A stretch of DNA of 64,000 bases, taken from the NCBI GenBank assembly GCA_020832985.1, contig JAJHRE010000002.1:22991-86990 (forward strand), in the 5' to 3' direction. Of this stretch, positions 10,784 to 17,140 are shown in pieces; the first letter of the stretch is position 1; every line of letters begins with the position of its first letter. Source of the stretch: Desulfurococcaceae archaeon. Its GTDB lineage: Archaea; Thermoproteota; Thermoprotei_A; Sulfolobales; NBVN01. The notes under the pieces were generated by a model. That model had not been told where the DNA came from, made no database searches, and worked only from the letters and a program-made list of their open reading frames with translations. The translations under genes and the position numbers were made by a program.

Positions 10784-11500
10784 TTGTTGAGTAGGTTATT
10801 AGATCTGATTAGGAGTGGTAGGGGTAGGGTTATAGTAGCTGTTGATGACCCACTAATAACTCTGAGTAGGTTTAAGGAGTTAGTTATGAAGACTAAAGAT
10901 GTTGTCTCAGGGTTTAAGTTAGGTCTACCCTATATATTGAGTTACGGCTTAGATAGTATTAGGTCTGTTATAACTGATTTCAGAGATACTTACTATATAG
11001 CTGATTTGAAATTAGCTGATATCGACGTCGTTATGAGTTTAACTACTAAGGTGGTATGTAGGGTAGGTTTTAACGGAGTCATAGCTCACGGATTTGTAGG
11101 TCTTAAGGGTGGTTTAGACGGTTTAAAGAGTGTTTGTGATGAGTTAGGTGTTGACTTATATATAGTTACGTCTATGTCACACCTAGGTAGTACTGAGATC
11201 TATGACTTAGTCATTGATAAGGTATTAAGTGTTGTTGAAGGTTTAAGACCTACAGGTGTTATAGCACCAGCTACTAGACCTGAAGTCATTAGGAGGGTTA
11301 GGAGTTACTTAGGACGTACATACTTAATACTATCACCTGGTGTTGGTGCTCAAGGCGCTTCACCAGGGTCAGCTATATGTGCTGGTGCTGACTTAGAGAT
11401 TGTTGGTAGAGCTATAACCTCATCTCAAGACTTTGTTAAAGCTTCTGAAGAAGTAATTAAATCACAGCTTAAGTACTTAGAAGTTAGTAGGTGTTACTGA
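10784..11500 (+). CDS. pyrF: Orotidine 5'-phosphate decarboxylase
   Basis: DLKLADI motif, operon context and size. Confidence 0.85.
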   Translation: MLSRLLDLIRSGRGRVIVAVDDPLITLSRFKELVMKTKDVVSGFKLGLPYILSYGLDSIRSVITDFRDTYYIADLKLADIDVVMSLTTKVVCRVGFNGVIAHGFVGLKGGLDGLKSVCDELGVDLYIVTSMSHLGSTEIYDLVIDKVLSVVEGLRPTGVIAPATRPEVIRRVRSYLGRTYLILSPGVGAQGASPGSAICAGADLEIVGRAITSSQDFVKASEEVIKSQLKYLEVSRCY

Positions 11501-11501
11501 G

Positions 11502-12098
11502 TTGTTAGAGGATATAGTCTTAAACCTATATAGGGTTGGAGTGATTAGGTTCGGAGACTTCATACTAGCTTCAGGTAGGAGGAGTCAGTACTACTTCGAC
11601 TTCAGGATACTGCCGTCATACCCTGAACTCTACTCTAAAGTCATTAACTTATGGTTAGATACCTTAAGGAGTTATGATTTAAGATTTGATGGTGTTGTAG
11701 GTATTGCTTCCGCAGGTATAGTTCATGCTGCAGTACTAGGATTCCTTATGAGGAAGCCTGTAGGTTACGTTAGAGCTGAGAGGAAGGACCACGGTACTAG
11801 TAAGTTAGTTGAGGGGGATCTTAAAGGTCTTAAAGTTATCGTAGTTGATGATGTAGTAACTACTGGAGGTACTTTAACGAGGGCTTACAACATACTTAAG
11901 GAGGAGGGTATTGACGTAGTAGCTTTCTCAGTAATCCTAGACCGTGAGGAAGGTGCTACAGAGAGTTTAAAGTCTTTAGGTATACCGTTAATACCGCTTA
12001 TGAGGACTTCACAAGTGTTTAGGATTCTTAAGGATTTAAATGTGATTAGTGATGAACTCTACAGCACATTAACCAAGCACTTAGGTAGTCCTAAATGA
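11502..12098 (+). CDS. pyrE: Orotate phosphoribosyltransferase
   Basis: PRPP-binding motif VIVVDDVVTTGGT. Confidence 0.9.
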   Translation: MLEDIVLNLYRVGVIRFGDFILASGRRSQYYFDFRILPSYPELYSKVINLWLDTLRSYDLRFDGVVGIASAGIVHAAVLGFLMRKPVGYVRAERKDHGTSKLVEGDLKGLKVIVVDDVVTTGGTLTRAYNILKEEGIDVVAFSVILDREEGATESLKSLGIPLIPLMRTSQVFRILKDLNVISDELYSTLTKHLGSPK

Positions 12099-12829
12099 TA
12101 CCTTCTAAAGTAGTTGAGAAGGTAGTTGTTTGTAGGGACGTAGCTCATATATACTTAAAGTTACTTAAGCCTATTGTTAAACCAACACCAGGTCAGTTCG
12201 TTATGGTTTGGGTACCTGGTTATGAGGAAATACCTATGAGTGTTAGTGATTTTAGTGACGACATCTTAAGAATTACCGTTAAGTGTAGGGGGCCTACAAC
12301 TAATTACTTAGTTAGGGAGTTACCAGTAGGTAGTTACTTAGGTGTTAGAGGTCCTTACGGTAAGGGAGTTACTGAAGATTTAATTAGTGGTAAGGGTCTC
12401 TTCATCGTTGGCGGTATAGGTATTGCCCCAATACTCTACCTAGTTAAGTACTATAGGGAGTTGATTAAAGGTTCTAAACTATTAGCAGGCTTCGTAAGTA
12501 GGGATGAGTCTAAAGTTACTGATGAATTAATTAATTACTTAGAAGTAGATATGGTTTCTGAAGATGTTGATGGTGCTACAGTTATTGACCTACTTAAGAA
12601 GTACTTACCAAGTATTAACAACTACGACTACTACCTGGTATCAGGACCTAAAGCAGTATTAGACCAGGTAGTTAATTTAGTAGGGGATAGCTTGAGGGGT
12701 TACGTACTTACTGAGTCTTTAATGAAGTGTGGTTTAGGTTTCTGCGGTTCATGTGCTTTAAAAGACTTTTTAGTTTGTAGAGATGGTACTTTAGTAGATG
12801 CTAGTAGGTATAGGTGGTTGATATCTTGA
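12095..12829 (+). CDS. pyrK: Dihydroorotate dehydrogenase electron-transfer subunit
   Basis: FNR-like fold with a C-terminal 2Fe-2S motif CGLGFCGSC...C. It has a 4-nt overlap with pyrE. Confidence 0.85.
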   Translation: MIPSKVVEKVVVCRDVAHIYLKLLKPIVKPTPGQFVMVWVPGYEEIPMSVSDFSDDILRITVKCRGPTTNYLVRELPVGSYLGVRGPYGKGVTEDLISGKGLFIVGGIGIAPILYLVKYYRELIKGSKLLAGFVSRDESKVTDELINYLEVDMVSEDVDGATVIDLLKKYLPSINNYDYYLVSGPKAVLDQVVNLVGDSLRGYVLTESLMKCGLGFCGSCALKDFLVCRDGTLVDASRYRWLIS

Positions 12830-14094
12830 TCGATAAAGTCTTCTACATAAGGACTTTAATTAACGGTTCAGTATCAGAGTTAACACTCTATGTAGGTGAT
12901 GACGGGTTTATTAAGAAGGTTAGTTATGGTAGGGAGTTAGTCAGCGGTTATGAAGTTATAGACCTATGTAGGGGTAGGCAAATAACCTTGCCTGGTTTTA
13001 TAGATCTACACGTACATTTAAGGGATTTTAAACTTAGTTATAAGGAGGATATAGTTAGTGGTTCTTCAGCAGCTGCTTCAGCAGGTTATGTATTGGTTTG
13101 TGATATGCCTAATACAAACCCACGTATAGATAATGCCGAGGTACTTAAGATGAGGGTTGAGGAAGCTTTGAGGAAGTCTTACGTGGATTACGGAGTATAC
13201 TGCGGTATACCTAGTGAGGCTAGAGTAGTTAATGACTTATTAAGTCTTAAGAACTTATTTGTAGGTTTTAAGATATACCCTGAGGACTTAGCAGATAGAT
13301 TTGCAGTTATTAAGTACTTATTAAGTGTTTATGACGGCTTAGTAGTAGTACATGGTGAATTACCTGAGTATGCTTTAAGACCTTCAATACGTGATTTAAG
13401 TCTCAGATATTTAGATAGGCCTTCATGGGGTGAGTTAGTAGTTGCTAACATACTATCAAGTATTAATAAGGCATCTAAGATACATATAACACATGCTTCA
13501 CACCCATCAACACCATACTTATGTAGGTCTCTAGGCTTTACAGTTGATACAACACCATATTACTTCCTATTAAGTAGTGATGATGTTAGGGATTGTTGGA
13601 GTAAGGTTAACCCACCGATTAACGACTTCGTAAGTAAGACGTTAGTATTCAGTAACGTGGTTAAGGGTGTTTACGACGCTATAGTCAGTGATCACGCACC
13701 ACATTCTGTTGAGGAGAAGTTAAGTGATTGGAGGTTATGTCCTTCAGGTATTACAGGTGTTGAAGTTAGTAGTAGGGTGTTGCTGACGTTATTTGTTAAA
13801 GGATTCATAAGTTATGAGTTACTTATTAAGTACTTATGTAGAGGTCCTGCTAAGGTCTTAGGTATCGATGACTTCTTAGGTAGTTTAAGTAGTGGTTTTA
13901 GAGCTTCATTCACCGTCATAGACTTTAGTAGGGAGGGTATAGCGTATACTAGGTATTCTAAAGCTCTTAAGTCATGTCTTGACGGTTTTAGATATGTTGG
14001 TGAGGTTGTTAAGACTGTAGTCGGTGGTACTTTAGTATTTGATGAGGGTGTGTTTAATAAGCCTAAGGTGGTGGTACTTGGTAGTAAGTCTTGA
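12814..14094 (+). CDS. pyrC: Dihydroorotase
   Basis: DLHVHLRD metal-binding motif, amidohydrolase fold and pyr operon context. Confidence 0.85.
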   Translation: MVDILIDKVFYIRTLINGSVSELTLYVGDDGFIKKVSYGRELVSGYEVIDLCRGRQITLPGFIDLHVHLRDFKLSYKEDIVSGSSAAASAGYVLVCDMPNTNPRIDNAEVLKMRVEEALRKSYVDYGVYCGIPSEARVVNDLLSLKNLFVGFKIYPEDLADRFAVIKYLLSVYDGLVVVHGELPEYALRPSIRDLSLRYLDRPSWGELVVANILSSINKASKIHITHASHPSTPYLCRSLGFTVDTTPYYFLLSSDDVRDCWSKVNPPINDFVSKTLVFSNVVKGVYDAIVSDHAPHSVEEKLSDWRLCPSGITGVEVSSRVLLTLFVKGFISYELLIKYLCRGPAKVLGIDDFLGSLSSGFRASFTVIDFSREGIAYTRYSKALKSCLDGFRYVGEVVKTVVGGTLVFDEGVFNKPKVVVLGSKS

Positions 14095-14995
14095 GGTCTT
14101 AGTAGGTGGTTTAAGACTTAAGCACCCTGTAATGGTCGGTTCTGGAGTCTTAGGTGATAAGCCTGAATTGATTGAGAGGTTAGTTAGGGAGGGTGATCCA
14201 TCAGCAGTTGTTACTAAGACATTAACTAAGTATAGACGTGAGGGTTACCTACCACCAATAATAGTTGAATTAGGTTGTGACTCATACCTAAATGCTGTAG
14301 GTCTAGCGAATCCAGGTATTGAAGTAGTTAATGACTTAGTTAGTGTTGGTTTAAGATATGGTATACCGGTAGTAGTTAGTATTGCAGGTAGTAGTATTGA
14401 TGAGTTTGTAGAGTTAGGTATTAAGGCTGAGTTAGGTAAGGCATCAGCTATAGAGTTAAACCTTAGCTGCCCACATGTTAAGGGGTTAGGTGCTGAGTTA
14501 GGTAGGGATCCACAAACGACTTATGAGGTTGTAAGGAATGTTAAGTCAGTAGTTAAAATACCTGTATGGGTTAAGTTAGGTCCTTGGGATAACGTAGTTG
14601 AAGTAGCTTCTAAATCATTAAGTGCAGGAGCTAACGCATTAGTACTGATAAATACCTTAAGGGGTATGAAGATAGATATATACAGTAGGAAACCAATACT
14701 AACAGCACGTGTTGGAGGCCTATCAGGGAAAGCACTACACCCAGTAGCTGTTAGAGTGATCTACGAAGTATATAAAGAATTAAAATGTGATATAGTCGGA
14801 GTTGGCGGTGTCCTAAATCATGAAACAGCAATAGAACTAATACTAGCAGGGGCAAAAGCAGTACAGGTAGTATCAGCATTAATTAAAAATCCACCAACAG
14901 TAATAAAGGAAATCGTAAACTCAATATCAAACTACATGAACGAAATAGACATTAAAGACATAAAACATTTAGTAGGAGCAGTAACGCATGATTAA
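14039..14995 (+). CDS. pyrD: Dihydroorotate dehydrogenase 1B catalytic subunit; start uncertain (ATG 14039 or in-frame TTG 14078)
   Basis: LKHPVMVGSG and NLSCPH motifs. The first ~15 codons of the tracked ORF overlap pyrC and look non-native. Confidence 0.9.
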   Translation: MMRVCLISLRWWYLVVSLEVLVGGLRLKHPVMVGSGVLGDKPELIERLVREGDPSAVVTKTLTKYRREGYLPPIIVELGCDSYLNAVGLANPGIEVVNDLVSVGLRYGIPVVVSIAGSSIDEFVELGIKAELGKASAIELNLSCPHVKGLGAELGRDPQTTYEVVRNVKSVVKIPVWVKLGPWDNVVEVASKSLSAGANALVLINTLRGMKIDIYSRKPILTARVGGLSGKALHPVAVRVIYEVYKELKCDIVGVGGVLNHETAIELILAGAKAVQVVSALIKNPPTVIKEIVNSISNYMNEIDIKDIKHLVGAVTHD

Positions 14996-15141: not shown

Positions 15142-15942
15142 TTAAGTGTTTTCTACTAGGTATTTCATCAACTTTTCTACTAGTTCTTTAGGTATTTCTA
15201 GTGATTGTGTTAGTGCTGTGTCTGTACATACTGTTGTATGTGTTATGTCTGCACTTACCTTACCTGTGGTTATGTTCTTCACTACACATCTCCATTTGAT
15301 TGACTTACTTCCTATGTTTTCAACCCATACATATAGTTCTAAGTCGTTATCTAATCTTGAGGGTGTTAATACTTTATAACTTACTTCAGTGGTAGGTATG
15401 AAAATCCCGTACTCATGTATTAATCTACTATAGCTGAATCCTAGATTAGCTAGTAGTTCTGACCAAGCCCTCTCACAAAATCTTAAGTAGTTAGTGTAGT
15501 GTACTACTTGTAGGTAGTCAGTATCAGCTAATGTAGTCCTAACTCTGTAGACGTAAGCATTATCAGGTATTTTAAAACCTTCCTCACTAACCACCTCGAA
15601 ATCCTTCCTCTGATTCTCTAACATTCTTAAGTACTTCCTAACATCAATACCTAATGAGTTAACCACGTTCTTAAACTCCTCAATAGCTTTCTCCCTAGCT
15701 GTAGACTCATCTAAACCATCACTAACATAGTTACTTACCTGTAATTCTGTTAACGCAGCTAAGTTACTTATTACTTCATCCTCACTTAACTTACCAACTA
15801 TTAAACCTGCATGAACTACAACATAATCACCTACCTCAACGCCATCAACACCAACTACAGTATCTACTATAGTACCACCTATATTCACCTTAGCATACAT
15901 ACCGTCAACCTCAACAACCCTACCTGGAGTACCCCAACACAT
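15142..15942 (-). CDS. hypC: HypC-type hydrogenase maturation chaperone fused to a 4HBT/YbgC-type hotdog acyl-CoA thioesterase domain
   Basis: The N-terminus MCWGTPGRVVEV...GDYVVVHAG is the HypC/HupF signature, including Cys2. The C-terminal ~130 aa (YRVRTTLADTDYLQVVHYTNYLRF...) is a hotdog thioesterase signature. Confidence 0.75.
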   Translation of the reverse strand: MCWGTPGRVVEVDGMYAKVNIGGTIVDTVVGVDGVEVGDYVVVHAGLIVGKLSEDEVISNLAALTELQVSNYVSDGLDESTAREKAIEEFKNVVNSLGIDVRKYLRMLENQRKDFEVVSEEGFKIPDNAYVYRVRTTLADTDYLQVVHYTNYLRFCERAWSELLANLGFSYSRLIHEYGIFIPTTEVSYKVLTPSRLDNDLELYVWVENIGSKSIKWRCVVKNITTGKVSADITHTTVCTDTALTQSLEIPKELVEKLMKYLVENT

Positions 15943-15943
15943 C

Positions 15944-17140
15944 CTAGACCCCCCTAACTAACTCTACACCACCATATAAAGCCCAGATCCTACATGTCCC
16001 TTCAGAGGAGACCATACAAGGACCTAAAGGTGATTCAGGCTTACATACCTTCATAAATAACGGACATTTAGTAGGTTTCTCAATACCTAATACGACCTCA
16101 CCACACCTACACCCAGGAGGTAACTCCCTCTCATAGGGGTTTGAAGTAGCTGTAGTTAATACGTAGTCAGTAGGTTTAGGTACCCTCAACTTAAACTCCT
16201 TAACAGCATCATACCTACTATAACCATCCCTTAACTCTAAACCACTCTTAGGTACGTAGCCGATACCTCTCCAAGCAGCGTTAACGGCTTCGAAGACCTC
16301 ATCAATTACCTTCTTAGCCGTTAAATTACCCTCCCACCTCACCAACCTACTATACTCAATACTAACTCCTGGCCTACCATCAACTAACATCTTAAGTATC
16401 CTAGCTACAGCTACTAAAACATCAATAGGTTCGAAACCAGTAACTACTGTAGGTATTTTAAACTCCTTAGGTAGGAATTCCCAAGCCATACCGCCAACAA
16501 TAGCTGATACATGTCCAGGAGCTATAACACCTCTAATAGGCATTAAACCCCTCTCCCTAAACAACTTAATCACATACCTCATAACTGGTGGTGTAAGTCT
16601 TAAAGCACTTAATAACTTTAGATTCTCAGGTACCTCACCAGACTTAATAAGTAATGCGTATGAAGGTGCTGTAGTTTCAAAACCAATACCGAAGAATACC
16701 GAGTCCCTACCGTACTCCTTAGCATCCTTAACAGCCTCTAAGAAACTATAGACGACCTTAACATTACCACCTAATGCTTGAGCTTCAGCTAAGTTCTTAG
16801 GAGTCTTACCAGTAGTTGTAGGTAGTTTATAAGCGTCACCGAATGTGTAAATCCTAATACCTTCTAGAGAAAGTCTAACTAACTCATCAACATATACCCC
16901 AGGAGTTATACATACTGGACATCCAGGACCTGCAACTAATTCAATACCTTCAGGCATTAAAGACCTTAAACCGTAGTACGTAGTGGTCCACTCATGAGTA
17001 CCACAGAAATTCATGATCTTGATAGGACTGCCTAAATCCTGAACCAACTTCTCAGTATAATTACTTATGAGTTTAACTAGGGACCTAGCCAACTCAGCAT
17101 TACTCCTAAATACCTTAGTAATCACTCCCTCAAGATCCAA
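15944..17140 (-). CDS. hypD: Hydrogenase maturation protein HypD
   Basis: GPGCPVC motif and C-terminal Cys cluster. It lies 1 nt upstream of the hypC fusion gene. Confidence 0.9.
   Translation of the reverse strand: MDLEGVITKVFRSNAELARSLVKLISNYTEKLVQDLGSPIKIMNFCGTHEWTTTYYGLRSLMPEGIELVAGPGCPVCITPGVYVDELVRLSLEGIRIYTFGDAYKLPTTTGKTPKNLAEAQALGGNVKVVYSFLEAVKDAKEYGRDSVFFGIGFETTAPSYALLIKSGEVPENLKLLSALRLTPPVMRYVIKLFRERGLMPIRGVIAPGHVSAIVGGMAWEFLPKEFKIPTVVTGFEPIDVLVAVARILKMLVDGRPGVSIEYSRLVRWEGNLTAKKVIDEVFEAVNAAWRGIGYVPKSGLELRDGYSRYDAVKEFKLRVPKPTDYVLTTATSNPYERELPPGCRCGEVVLGIEKPTKCPLFMKVCKPESPLGPCMVSSEGTCRIWALYGGVELVRGV

What the first reader, a model, noticed from the sequence alone, without database searches (positions are those of the whole stretch)
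15142..17140. HypC fused to a hotdog acyl-CoA thioesterase, paired only with HypD
SEEN: the 266-aa ORF starts with a textbook HypC module (MCWGTPGRVVEV..., essential Cys2, GDYVVVHAG). After a ~55-aa linker it continues into a complete 4HBT/YbgC-type hotdog thioesterase domain (ADTDYLQVVHYTNYLRF..., Asp-containing catalytic motif). It lies 1 nt downstream of hypD. No hypA/B/E/F or hydrogenase structural genes are in the window; the flanks are pyrD and an isochorismatase-family gene. ESTABLISHED: HypC-HypD form the scaffold on which the Fe(CN)2CO moiety of [NiFe]-hydrogenase is built, and HypC is normally a stand-alone ~75-90 aa protein. The aerobic CO-ligand route (HypX) proceeds via a formyl-CoA intermediate. 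INFERENCE: covalently linking a CoA-thioester-cleaving domain to HypC suggests that an acyl/formyl-thioester step is delivered directly to the HypCD scaffold, or that HypCD has a role outside hydrogenase maturation.
Basis: partly seen in the sequence, partly recalled or inferred. Interest (0 to 1): 0.65.

Follow-up and report, generated by a model that had tools for sequence, protein, structure and literature searches.

The report
HypC chaperone fused to a thioesterase
An archaeal hydrogenase-assembly chaperone (HypC) carries a conserved, apparently active acyl-CoA thioesterase domain on a flexible tether, and because relatives of this fusion sit inside complete hydrogenase and maturation operons, it points to thioester chemistry at the site where the enzyme's iron-carbonyl-cyanide cofactor is built.

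Summary
Window 15142-15942(-) is one 266-aa ORF with four parts:
- a canonical HypC module (Met-Cys start, VHAG histidine);
- a conserved two-helix extension;
- a variable linker of about 25 aa;
- a complete YbgC-type hotdog thioesterase with the catalytic Asp.

It starts 1 nt after a canonical hypD. It is not an assembly artefact. The same architecture occurs in 24 species-level archaeal genomes, all MAGs (Desulfurococcaceae/Sulfolobales order, Hadarchaeota, Geoarchaeota and others). The thioesterase is the most conserved part.

New here:
- hypD lies directly upstream in 14 of those 24 loci.
- In six loci hypE and hypF are adjacent.
- In three loci the fusion is the only HypC in an operon: HdrA-like, mvhD, [NiFe] small subunit, large subunit, protease, hypD, hypC-TE, hypE, hypF.
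- In a Geoarchaeota locus it lies beside an uptake-type [NiFe]-hydrogenase.

The family therefore belongs to hydrogenase maturation. The idea that a thioester step is brought to the HypCD scaffold is plausible but unproven. It fits published Cys2-dependent formyl/acetyl-like adducts on HypC and the unsolved origin of the anaerobic CO ligand. I found no prior description.

Verdict: a new variant of a known kind, of moderately high interest.

The parts
15944..17140 (-). hypD (398 aa). Canonical [4Fe-4S] scaffold protein with the CGTHE, GPGCPVC, GFET and PGHVS motifs and the C-terminal Cys cluster.
   Evidence: Pfam HypD E 2.7e-121. TIGR00075 364 bits against a 192.8 cut-off. Aligns end to end with T. 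kodakarensis HypD 2z1d, E 3e-87, with the motifs aligned.
15142..15942 (-). hypC-thioesterase fusion ORF (266 aa plus stop).
   Evidence: Identical protein in NCBI as MCC6021676.1, annotated only as a HypC/HybG/HupF chaperone.
15942..15946 (-). hypD stop (TAG), one base, then the hypC-TE start (only the A of its ATG falls in this range; the ATG is 15942-15940). The tight junction implies co-transcription and translational coupling.
   Evidence: Sequence. The same 1-nt junction is seen in relatives with a plain hypC.
15784..15942 (-). HypC OB-fold module (residues 1-53), with Cys2 (codon 15937-15939) and His44 of the VHAG motif.
   Evidence: Pfam. Aligns from Met1-Cys2 with T. kodakarensis HypC 2z1c and E. 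coli HypC 2ot2, including the VH.G histidine. AF2 predicts five beta strands. Cys2 is present in 25 of 26 homologues and H44 is invariant.
15643..15783 (-). Conserved helical hairpin extension (residues 54-100), shared with stand-alone 'long HypC' proteins.
   Evidence: AF2 helices 54-74 and 79-96. Stand-alone 102-110 aa HypCs align over residues 1-107 at 49-60% identity.
15559..15642 (-). Variable, partly disordered tether (residues 101-128).
   Evidence: pLDDT below 50 for residues 110-121. Mean pairwise identity is 22% here, against 52-60% in the domains.
15157..15558 (-). YbgC/4HBT-type hotdog thioesterase domain (residues 129-262). The catalytic-type Asp142 (codon 15517-15519) lies in the motif L-A-D-T-D-Y-L-Q-V-V-H-Y-T-N-Y.
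   Evidence: Pfam 4HBT_2 and 4HBT. Foldseek top hits are YbgC structures 5v10, 1s5u and 5t06 (rmsd 1.2-1.4 A, target TM 0.92-0.94). The DTD motif aligns with the EDTD of E. coli YbgC. D142 and 30 other residues of this domain (positions 129-262) are invariant in 26 sequences. dN/dS is 0.09-0.13.

Best explanation
This is a genuine two-gene unit, hypD plus a bifunctional hypC. The N-terminal module is a normal HypC. After removal of Met1, its Cys2 shares the iron of the nascent Fe(CN)2CO group with a cysteine of HypD.

The C-terminal module is an enzymatically competent YbgC-type hotdog thioesterase. It is held on a flexible tether of about 25 residues, long enough to reach the Cys2/HypD iron site in cis or across a hotdog dimer.

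The protein works in [NiFe]-hydrogenase maturation, as shown by the gene context of family members. The most likely job of the tethered domain is to handle an acyl thioester at the scaffold. It would bind a short acyl-CoA (formyl- or acetyl-CoA) and pass the acyl group to Cys2 of HypC, or turn it over there. This would feed or resolve the S-acyl-cysteine species that has been proposed as a precursor of the CO ligand under anoxic conditions. This last step is inferred, not shown.

As a by-product, hotdog dimerisation would bring two HypC-HypD units together, matching the 2:2:2 HypC-HypD-HypE complex.

Shown here:
- both domains, their conserved catalytic residues and purifying selection on both;
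- the operon link to hypD, hypE, hypF, the protease and hydrogenase structural genes.

Inferred:
- that the thioesterase is active;
- that it acts on the scaffold, and what its substrate is;
- any link to CO.
For: Domains and fold.

Conservation of the fusion:
- 16 protein clusters.
- 24 species-level genomes (all MAGs) in at least three archaeal phyla.
- Only 3-4 clusters at 50% identity among 1.84 billion representatives, so it is one coherent family.

Gene context:
- hypD directly upstream in 14 of 24 genome loci, plus the window, L002 and L036.
- hypE (ending PRIC) and hypF with all its domains adjacent in six loci.
- hypA in L014.
- L008, L010 and L016 carry abutting or overlapping genes in the order mvhD, [NiFe] small subunit, large subunit (RICGVC ... 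DPCHACGTH), HycI protease, hypD, hypC-TE, hypE, hypF.
- L015 has hypD, hypC-TE and HycI beside an uptake-type small and large subunit pair.
- The fusion is the only HypC-like sequence within +/-10 kb in every locus.

Constraint on the thioesterase:
- It is the most conserved region: 60% mean pairwise identity against 52% for the HypC module.
- dN/dS is 0.13 against 0.47 (window vs L003).
- Asp142 is invariant.

Literature:
- The origin of the anaerobic CO ligand is called 'the most pressing' open question, and formyl-CoA is one of the candidates (PMC12134894).
- HypC carries Cys2-dependent +26 and +28 Da adducts, interpreted as acetyl-derived and formyl. A thio- or N-acetyl group on Cys2 has been proposed as a CO precursor (PMC10847431).
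Against: - There is no biochemical evidence. The substrate is unknown, and YbgC-type enzymes normally just hydrolyse acyl-CoA to acid plus CoA, which does not yield CO.
- The domain is dispensable in close relatives. The HypD proteins most similar to the window's outside the fusion clade (67-71% identity) are followed by a plain 108-110 aa HypC with no thioesterase gene nearby.
- The nearest stand-alone thioesterases are not in hyp contexts.
- The fusion is rare and confined to uncultured thermophilic archaea.
- In ten species (the 'type B' clade) the fusion is not next to hypD.
- I could not show that this organism has hypE, hypF or a hydrogenase.
Confidence: 0.5

Rival explanations
1. The hotdog domain is mainly a structural module. 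Hotdog proteins form tight dimers or tetramers, so the fusion simply dimerises HypC (and with it HypCD) to favour the 2:2:2 HypCDE complex or to stabilise the chaperone at high temperature. Any thioesterase activity would be irrelevant to maturation.
For: - All carriers are thermophile or subsurface MAGs.
- The review states that two HypCD heterodimers bind one HypE dimer.
- The domain is dispensable in close relatives.
- The AF2 model shows two independent domains joined by a disordered tether, pTM 0.54.
Against: A purely structural role would not need the catalytic Asp and the whole D-T-D-Y-L-Q-V-x-H-Y-x-N-Y active-site motif to stay invariant across phyla. It would also not make this the most constrained part of the protein.
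Confidence: 0.15
2. The domain is an editing or housekeeping thioesterase. The N-terminal cysteine of HypC is chemically prone to acylation by cellular acyl-CoAs. The tethered thioesterase would remove off-pathway S-acyl groups, or deplete acyl-CoA locally, to keep Cys2 free for iron binding.
For: - Abundant Cys2-dependent adducts on E. coli HypC and HybG may be acetyl- or acetaldehyde-derived, and they occur even without the other Hyp proteins (PMC10847431).
- The accessory, lineage-specific distribution fits a protective function.
Against: From chemistry (inference): S-acyl groups on an N-terminal cysteine rearrange quickly to stable N-acyl amides, which a thioesterase cannot remove. No computed result here distinguishes this reading from the productive one.
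Confidence: 0.15
3. In this organism, and in the 'type B' clade, HypD and HypC-TE work outside [NiFe]-hydrogenase maturation. For example, they might build or carry another iron or thio-cofactor using an acyl-CoA-derived ligand.
For: - There is no other hyp or hydrogenase gene in the 64-kb window or around the closest relative L004.
- In type B genomes hypD and the fusion are more than 100 kb apart. hypD is paired with a formamidase-family gene. The fusion lies beside a 2-oxoacid:ferredoxin oxidoreductase and IscS/NifU.
Against: - The family sits in full hyp and hydrogenase operons elsewhere.
- The window's HypD keeps every motif needed for cyanide transfer and the [4Fe-4S] cluster.
- Scattered hyp genes are normal in this order (Ignisphaera aggregans, L042, L043).
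- Related Desulfurococcaceae have several [NiFe]-hydrogenases.
Confidence: 0.1
4. The fusion is an artefact: a frameshift, a lost stop codon or a chimeric assembly joining hypC to a neighbouring thioesterase gene.
For: None found.
Against: - The same uninterrupted ORF occurs in 26 independent assemblies from different studies and phyla.
- A short-linker variant exists (P0019).
- Selection is purifying across the junction.
Confidence: 0.01

Closest known systems
HypC/HybG/HupF hydrogenase maturation chaperones (T. kodakarensis HypC, PDB 2z1c; E. coli HypC, 2ot2)
   Same: Same N-terminal M-C-x-G-x-P-G start, OB-fold and V-H-x-G histidine. The gene is immediately next to hypD, and in relatives it lies within hypDCEF and hydrogenase operons.
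   Different: Canonical HypC is a stand-alone protein of about 75-90 aa. This one carries a second helix, a tether and a 135-aa enzyme domain. It scores below the NCBIfam TIGR00074 cut-off.
Stand-alone 'long HypC' of Sulfolobales-order and other archaeal MAGs (L042, L043, P0025)
   Same: 49-60% identical over residues 1-107, including the helical hairpin. It has the same 1-nt hypD-hypC junction and the same isolation from other hyp genes.
   Different: It ends exactly where the variable linker of the fusion begins. There is no thioesterase domain and no thioesterase gene nearby.
YbgC / 4HBT-class hotdog acyl-CoA thioesterases (E. coli YbgC 1s5u/5t06; P. aeruginosa 5v10)
   Same: Same fold (rmsd 1.2-1.4 A), full-length alignment, and the catalytic Asp in a D-T-D motif.
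   Different: - 24-27% identity.
- Below the TIGR00051 and TIGR02799 cut-offs.
- No tol-pal context, since these are archaea.
- Family-specific invariant residues, for example Y-L-Q in place of the A-G-G that follows the Asp, and Cys156 in place of Phe/Tyr.
- Covalently tethered to HypC.
HypX, the aerobic CO-ligand synthase
   Same: Only the concept is shared: a CoA-thioester-handling enzyme dedicated to [NiFe]-cofactor assembly. HypX makes formyl-CoA and decarbonylates it to CO (PMC12134894).
   Different: The folds are unrelated. HypX has a formyltransferase domain plus a crotonase-like domain, and no such Pfam match is found here. HypX is a separate protein found in aerobes, whereas the carriers of this fusion appear to be anaerobic thermophiles.

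Membership tests
HypC/HupF family (PF01455, TIGR00074) | Profile match above the curated threshold | tested here: met
   Pfam 55.9 bits against 28.5. The stricter NCBIfam TIGR00074 gives 41.2 bits against 48, which is not reached.
HypC/HupF family (PF01455, TIGR00074) | N-terminal Met-Cys, with Cys2 as the essential iron ligand | tested here: met
   The protein begins MCWGTPG. Cys2 aligns with 2z1c and 2ot2 and is present in 25 of 26 homologues.
HypC/HupF family (PF01455, TIGR00074) | OB-fold barrel with a conserved His in the V-H-x-G motif | tested here: met
   AF2 strands 5-52 with pLDDT of about 85-90. H44 is invariant and aligns with the His of E. coli VLVHVG.
HypC/HupF family (PF01455, TIGR00074) | Genomic partnership with hypD and other hyp genes | tested here: met
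   In the window it starts 1 nt after hypD. hypD is adjacent in 14 of 24 genomes. hypE and hypF are adjacent in six loci, and hydrogenase structural genes in four.
HypC/HupF family (PF01455, TIGR00074) | Forms a complex with HypD and carries Fe(CN)2CO to the large subunit | not testable with these tools
   Needs biochemistry or a multimer prediction.
YbgC/4HBT-class hotdog thioesterases (PF13279/PF03061, TIGR00051) | Hotdog fold | tested here: met
   AF2 model with pLDDT of about 85-93 over residues 150-260. Foldseek against YbgC structures gives target TM 0.92-0.94 and rmsd 1.2-1.4 A.
YbgC/4HBT-class hotdog thioesterases (PF13279/PF03061, TIGR00051) | Catalytic Asp at the N-terminal D-T-D motif | tested here: met
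   D142 aligns with the EDTD of E. coli YbgC and is invariant in 26 sequences.
YbgC/4HBT-class hotdog thioesterases (PF13279/PF03061, TIGR00051) | Profile match above the curated threshold | tested here: inconclusive
   Pfam 4HBT_2 47.9 bits against 25.5 and 4HBT 39.6 against 20.6 are both met. TIGR00051 60.1 bits against 68.7 is not met.
YbgC/4HBT-class hotdog thioesterases (PF13279/PF03061, TIGR00051) | Acyl-CoA hydrolase activity | not testable with these tools
   Needs an enzyme assay.
Tol-Pal-associated YbgC (TIGR02799 equivalog) | Equivalog score and tol-pal gene context | tested here: not met
   57 bits against a cut-off of 141.35. The context is an archaeal hyp cluster, not tol-pal.
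HypX (aerobic CO synthase) | N-terminal formyltransferase domain plus C-terminal crotonase-like domain | tested here: not met
   No such Pfam families match the fusion or HypD. The resemblance is conceptual only.

The most novel reading that the evidence does not exclude
The tethered hotdog domain is part of the long-sought anaerobic route to the CO ligand of [NiFe]-hydrogenases. It would take a formyl or acetyl group from a CoA thioester and place it on, or process it at, Cys2 of HypC next to the HypD-bound iron, where it becomes the carbonyl. In other organisms the same step would be done by an unfused, so far unrecognised thioesterase or acyltransferase. The fusion would then be the 'Rosetta stone' that identifies that enzyme class.
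Probability: 0.2. Interest if true: 0.9.

Novelty: new variant of a known kind. Interest (0 to 1): 0.62.

Why it matters
All [NiFe]-hydrogenases carry one CO ligand on the active-site iron. How anaerobes make it is described in a 2025 review as the most pressing unanswered question in hydrogenase maturation. Formyl-CoA and an acetyl or formyl adduct on HypC's N-terminal cysteine are among the candidate intermediates (PMC12134894, PMC10847431).

Here, nature has covalently tied a CoA-thioester enzyme to HypC and keeps it under strong selection inside complete hydrogenase and hyp operons. That is independent, genome-derived support for thioester chemistry at this site.

It also gives a concrete, small and thermostable protein to test. 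Suitable experiments are activity on formyl- and acetyl-CoA, adducts on Cys2, transfer of labelled carbon into the carbonyl, and complementation with and without Asp142.

If the domain turns out to be structural or editing only, the finding is still a previously unremarked HypC architecture that is currently annotated simply as 'HypC'.

Tried and rejected
1. Whole-genome check for hypE and hypF. I searched the 5.8-billion-protein set with a related HypE, hoping to find a cluster on the 1,337,702-bp contig that carries the identical fusion, or on the 1.41-Mb, 333-kb or 432-kb contigs. The 120 hits listed did not include any of these. Inconclusive, not negative.

2. The same trick with HypD did work for one type B genome. 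P0218 lies on the 333,766-bp contig.

3. Unfused partners. The nearest stand-alone thioesterases, P0020 and P0024, are on short contigs or in contexts unrelated to hyp (TenA, PadR, a giant ORF). This gives no support for an unfused hyp-linked thioesterase.

4. Foldseek against AFDB50 was not available.

5. Literature searches for HypC with thioesterase, hotdog or acyl-CoA thioesterase, and for Desulfurococcales or Hadesarchaea with HypC or HypD, found no description of the fusion. The library holds open-access papers only.

6. A neighbourhood paper lists a thioesterase-like alpha/beta hydrolase near hydrogenases, but that is a different fold.

7. tRNA and Rfam scans of the window found nothing.

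8. The artefact hypothesis was rejected.

9. A multimer model of HypD with the fusion was not attempted.
Full report
**1. What is in the window**

On the minus strand, 15944-17140 encodes a 398-aa HypD and 15142-15942 a 266-aa protein. The HypD stop (TAG, 15946-15944) is followed by one base and then the ATG of the second gene. This is a typical translationally coupled pair.

HypD is canonical. Pfam gives E 2.7e-121 and TIGR00075 gives 364 bits. It aligns end to end with the crystallised T. kodakarensis HypD, including the CGTHE, GPGCPVC, GFET and PGHVS motifs and the C-terminal cysteine cluster.

The second protein matches HupF_HypC over residues 1-64 and 4HBT_2/4HBT over residues 138-258, all above Pfam's gathering scores. 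With NCBIfam it matches the YbgC/FadM and hypC_hupF subfamily models just below their trusted cut-offs.

The flanks are pyrD and an isochorismatase-family gene. Nothing else in the 64 kb resembles:
- HypE, HypF, HycI, MvhD or the [NiFe] subunits (phmmer, no hit at E<=10);
- HypA or an Mrp-type HypB candidate (not confirmed as HypB);
- their signature motifs;
- a second HypC (tblastn).

**2. Anatomy**

An AlphaFold2 model built on 17 homologues has mean pLDDT 81. It shows four parts:
- a five-stranded HypC barrel (residues 5-52);
- a helical hairpin (54-74 and 79-96);
- a disordered stretch (110-121, pLDDT below 50);
- a hotdog domain (130-261).

The pTM of 0.54 fits two independently folded modules on a flexible tether.

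The HypC module aligns from Met1-Cys2 with T. kodakarensis and E. coli HypC, including the V-H-x-G histidine. The hotdog module superposes on YbgC structures (5v10, 1s5u, 5t06) at 1.2-1.4 A with target TM scores of 0.92-0.94. Its L-A-D-T-D motif aligns with the E-D-T-D of E. coli YbgC, which holds the catalytic aspartate (the role of that Asp is from established knowledge of the family).

Residues 54-100 are a conserved extension that also exists in stand-alone HypCs of 102-110 aa.

**3. A real, conserved fusion**

- A word-indexed search of 5.8 billion proteins found 16 clusters at 42-98% identity, all with both domains.
- An exhaustive HMMER search of 1.84 billion representatives found only 3-4 full-length clusters at the 50% level. 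One is a short-linker variant of 216 aa. After these come stand-alone thioesterases and stand-alone long HypCs.
- A scan of one genome per GTDB species found the fusion in 24 species, all metagenome-assembled archaea. They are Desulfurococcaceae and other Sulfolobales-order lineages, Hadarchaeota, Geoarchaeota, 'Nitrososphaerota'-labelled thermophiles and one bin labelled Hodarchaeaceae.

Across 26 sequences, 47 residues are invariant. These include H44, D142 and most of the D-T-D-Y-L-Q-V-x-H-Y-x-N-Y motif. Cys2 is present in 25 of 26.

The thioesterase is the most conserved region. Mean pairwise identity is 60%, against 52% for the HypC barrel, 43% for the helices and 22% for the linker. dN/dS against the 83%-identical relative is 0.13 for the thioesterase and 0.47 for the HypC barrel. 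A frameshift or chimera is excluded.

**4. Gene context**

This is the main new evidence.

- hypD lies directly upstream of the fusion in 14 of the 24 genome loci, and also in the window, its 98%-identical JGI twin and the short-linker variant.
- In six loci hypE (AIRS domains, C-terminal PRIC) and hypF (acylphosphatase, two HypF zinc fingers, YrdC and Kae1-like domains) are adjacent.
- One hadarchaeal locus also has hypA.
- In three related genomes (L008, L010, L016) the genes abut or overlap in one direction. The order is Fe-S/HdrA-like proteins, MvhD, [NiFe] small subunit, large subunit (RICGVC ... DPCHACGTH plus a cleavable tail), HycI protease, hypD, hypC-TE, hypE, hypF.
- In a Geoarchaeota genome the order is hypD, hypC-TE and HycI, next to a convergent uptake-type small (NiFe_hyd_SSU_C) and large subunit pair.
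- In every locus the fusion is the only HypC-like sequence within 10 kb.

The family is therefore the HypC of bona fide [NiFe]-hydrogenase maturation systems, serving at least two hydrogenase types.

**5. The isolated pair in the window**

In the window and its closest relatives (L003, L004), hypD and hypC-TE sit among unrelated genes. That is normal for this archaeal order:
- The HypDs most similar to the window's outside the fusion clade (71% and 67% identity) are followed, after the same 1-nt gap, by a plain 108-110 aa HypC. That HypC is about 60% identical to residues 1-107 of the fusion and stops where the linker begins. These pairs also lie among unrelated genes.
- The cultured Ignisphaera aggregans has a lone hypD between EF-2 and adenylate kinase.
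- Related Desulfurococcaceae with 1.3-Mb genomes encode several [NiFe]-hydrogenases (PMC11467010).

I could not inspect the rest of this organism's genome. An attempt to find its HypE through the contig-length column of a protein search failed. A non-hydrogenase role here is unlikely but not excluded.

**6. A second context, 'type B'**

Ten Sulfolobales-order species form a coherent clade (73-79% identity within the clade over the folded parts) in which the fusion is not next to hypD.
- On one 333,766-bp contig the fusion lies at about 85 kb and a lone hypD at about 200 kb.
- That lone hypD is followed in all four recovered loci, which represent two distinct HypD proteins, by a formamidase/acetamidase-family gene.
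- The fusion itself lies next to a four-subunit 2-oxoacid:ferredoxin oxidoreductase. A cysteine desulfurase, NifU_N, ThiI and an H+-pyrophosphatase are nearby.
- NifU_N and cysteine desulfurase genes also lie near the fusion in a hadesarchaeal locus and in the short-linker locus.

This recalls the report that the Isc machinery supplies the iron for the E. coli cofactor (PMC10847431). Synteny within one clade is weak evidence, so I record it only as a lead.

**7. Mechanism**

Shown: the protein joins a functional-looking HypC to a functional-looking acyl-CoA thioesterase by a tether long enough to let the two active sites meet, and it operates in hydrogenase maturation.

Inferred: the thioesterase handles an acyl thioester at the scaffold.

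Two published facts make this attractive:
[quoted passage not shown] Formyl-CoA is discussed as a candidate (PMC12134894).
- Native mass spectrometry of E. coli HypC shows Cys2-dependent +26 and +28 Da adducts, read as acetyl-derived and formyl groups. A thio- or N-acetyl group on Cys2 was proposed earlier as a CO precursor (PMC10847431). An S-acyl-cysteine is a thioester, which is the bond hotdog enzymes make and break through their Asp.

Against this:
- YbgC-type enzymes normally only hydrolyse.
- Close relatives do without the domain.
- The nearest unfused thioesterases are not hyp-linked.

Alternatives are a dimerisation or stability module, which would fit the 2:2:2 HypCDE complex, or an editing enzyme that keeps the reactive N-terminal cysteine free.

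I put 0.5 on 'maturation HypC whose thioesterase acts catalytically at the scaffold'. I put about 0.2 on the specific claim that it supplies the carbonyl carbon.

**8. Comparison, novelty and verdict**

As a HypC, it meets every sequence-level and context criterion that I could test. As a thioesterase, it meets the fold and catalytic-residue criteria of the YbgC/4HBT class. It is not the Tol-Pal YbgC equivalog, and it falls just under the TIGR00051 cut-off. It shares only a concept, not ancestry, with HypX.

Public annotation calls it simply 'HypC/HybG/HupF family chaperone', or occasionally 'acyl-CoA thioester hydrolase'. Five full-text searches found no paper that mentions the architecture.

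It is a new variant of a known kind. The interest lies less in the protein itself than in the testable hypothesis it offers for a long-standing question.

Noticed in passing
L037:10001-12292, L038:1162-3453, L039:10001-12283, L040:10001-12283: In Sulfolobales-order MAGs where the fusion is elsewhere in the genome, a lone hypD is always followed on the same strand by an FmdA_AmdA (formamidase/acetamidase family) gene. There is no hypC, hypE or hypF within 10 kb. A C1-amide hydrolase next to the cyanide- and carbonyl-handling scaffold protein is curious.
   Followed up: partly
L025:2314-9382 (also L007, L009, L011, L012, L018, L020, L022, L023, L026); L036:2226-2889; L021:12522-16733: In these loci the fusion sits near a four-subunit 2-oxoacid:ferredoxin oxidoreductase, a cysteine desulfurase (Aminotran_5) and NifU_N. 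NifU_N and cysteine desulfurase genes recur near the fusion in two unrelated contexts. This may echo the reported Isc-dependent iron supply to HypC, or it may be inherited synteny.
   Followed up: partly
L009:9998-10003: One fusion homologue has ACG (Thr) where the start codon before the essential Cys should be. The next in-frame start (GTG) would give a protein without Cys2. This is a sequencing error, a non-canonical start or a degenerate copy.
   Followed up: partly
L042:3129-5136: In a relative with plain hypD-hypC, an AIRC (LarB-like) gene and a Ni_insertion (LarC-like) gene lie 3-5 kb upstream. These are components of nickel-pincer cofactor synthesis, so two nickel-cofactor systems lie close together.
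   Followed up: no
L006 (bin labelled Candidatus Hodarchaeaceae) versus L013 (Hadesarchaea): The fusion in the bin labelled Hodarchaeaceae is 75% identical to hadesarchaeal copies. This suggests recent horizontal transfer or mis-binning.
   Followed up: no
P0135 (260 aa, from the representative search): This predicted protein joins the N-terminal part of a 2-oxoacid oxidoreductase-like sequence to a HypC fragment (residues 16-84 of the profile). It is probably a frameshifted or chimeric call, but it again places the oxidoreductase next to a HypC of this family.
   Followed up: no
window 10784-14995: Directly downstream of the pair, and convergent with it, lies a compact pyrimidine-biosynthesis cluster. 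Its parts are OMP decarboxylase, a phosphoribosyltransferase, a PyrK-like Fe-S subunit, a dihydroorotase-like amidohydrolase and pyrD. The last two ORFs overlap by 56 nt as listed, so the pyrD start is probably further downstream.
   Followed up: no
window 15146-15379 (+): A 77-aa antisense ORF lies inside the thioesterase-coding region. It clusters with similar antisense ORFs in other loci only because it shadows the conserved coding strand. It is spurious.
   Followed up: yes
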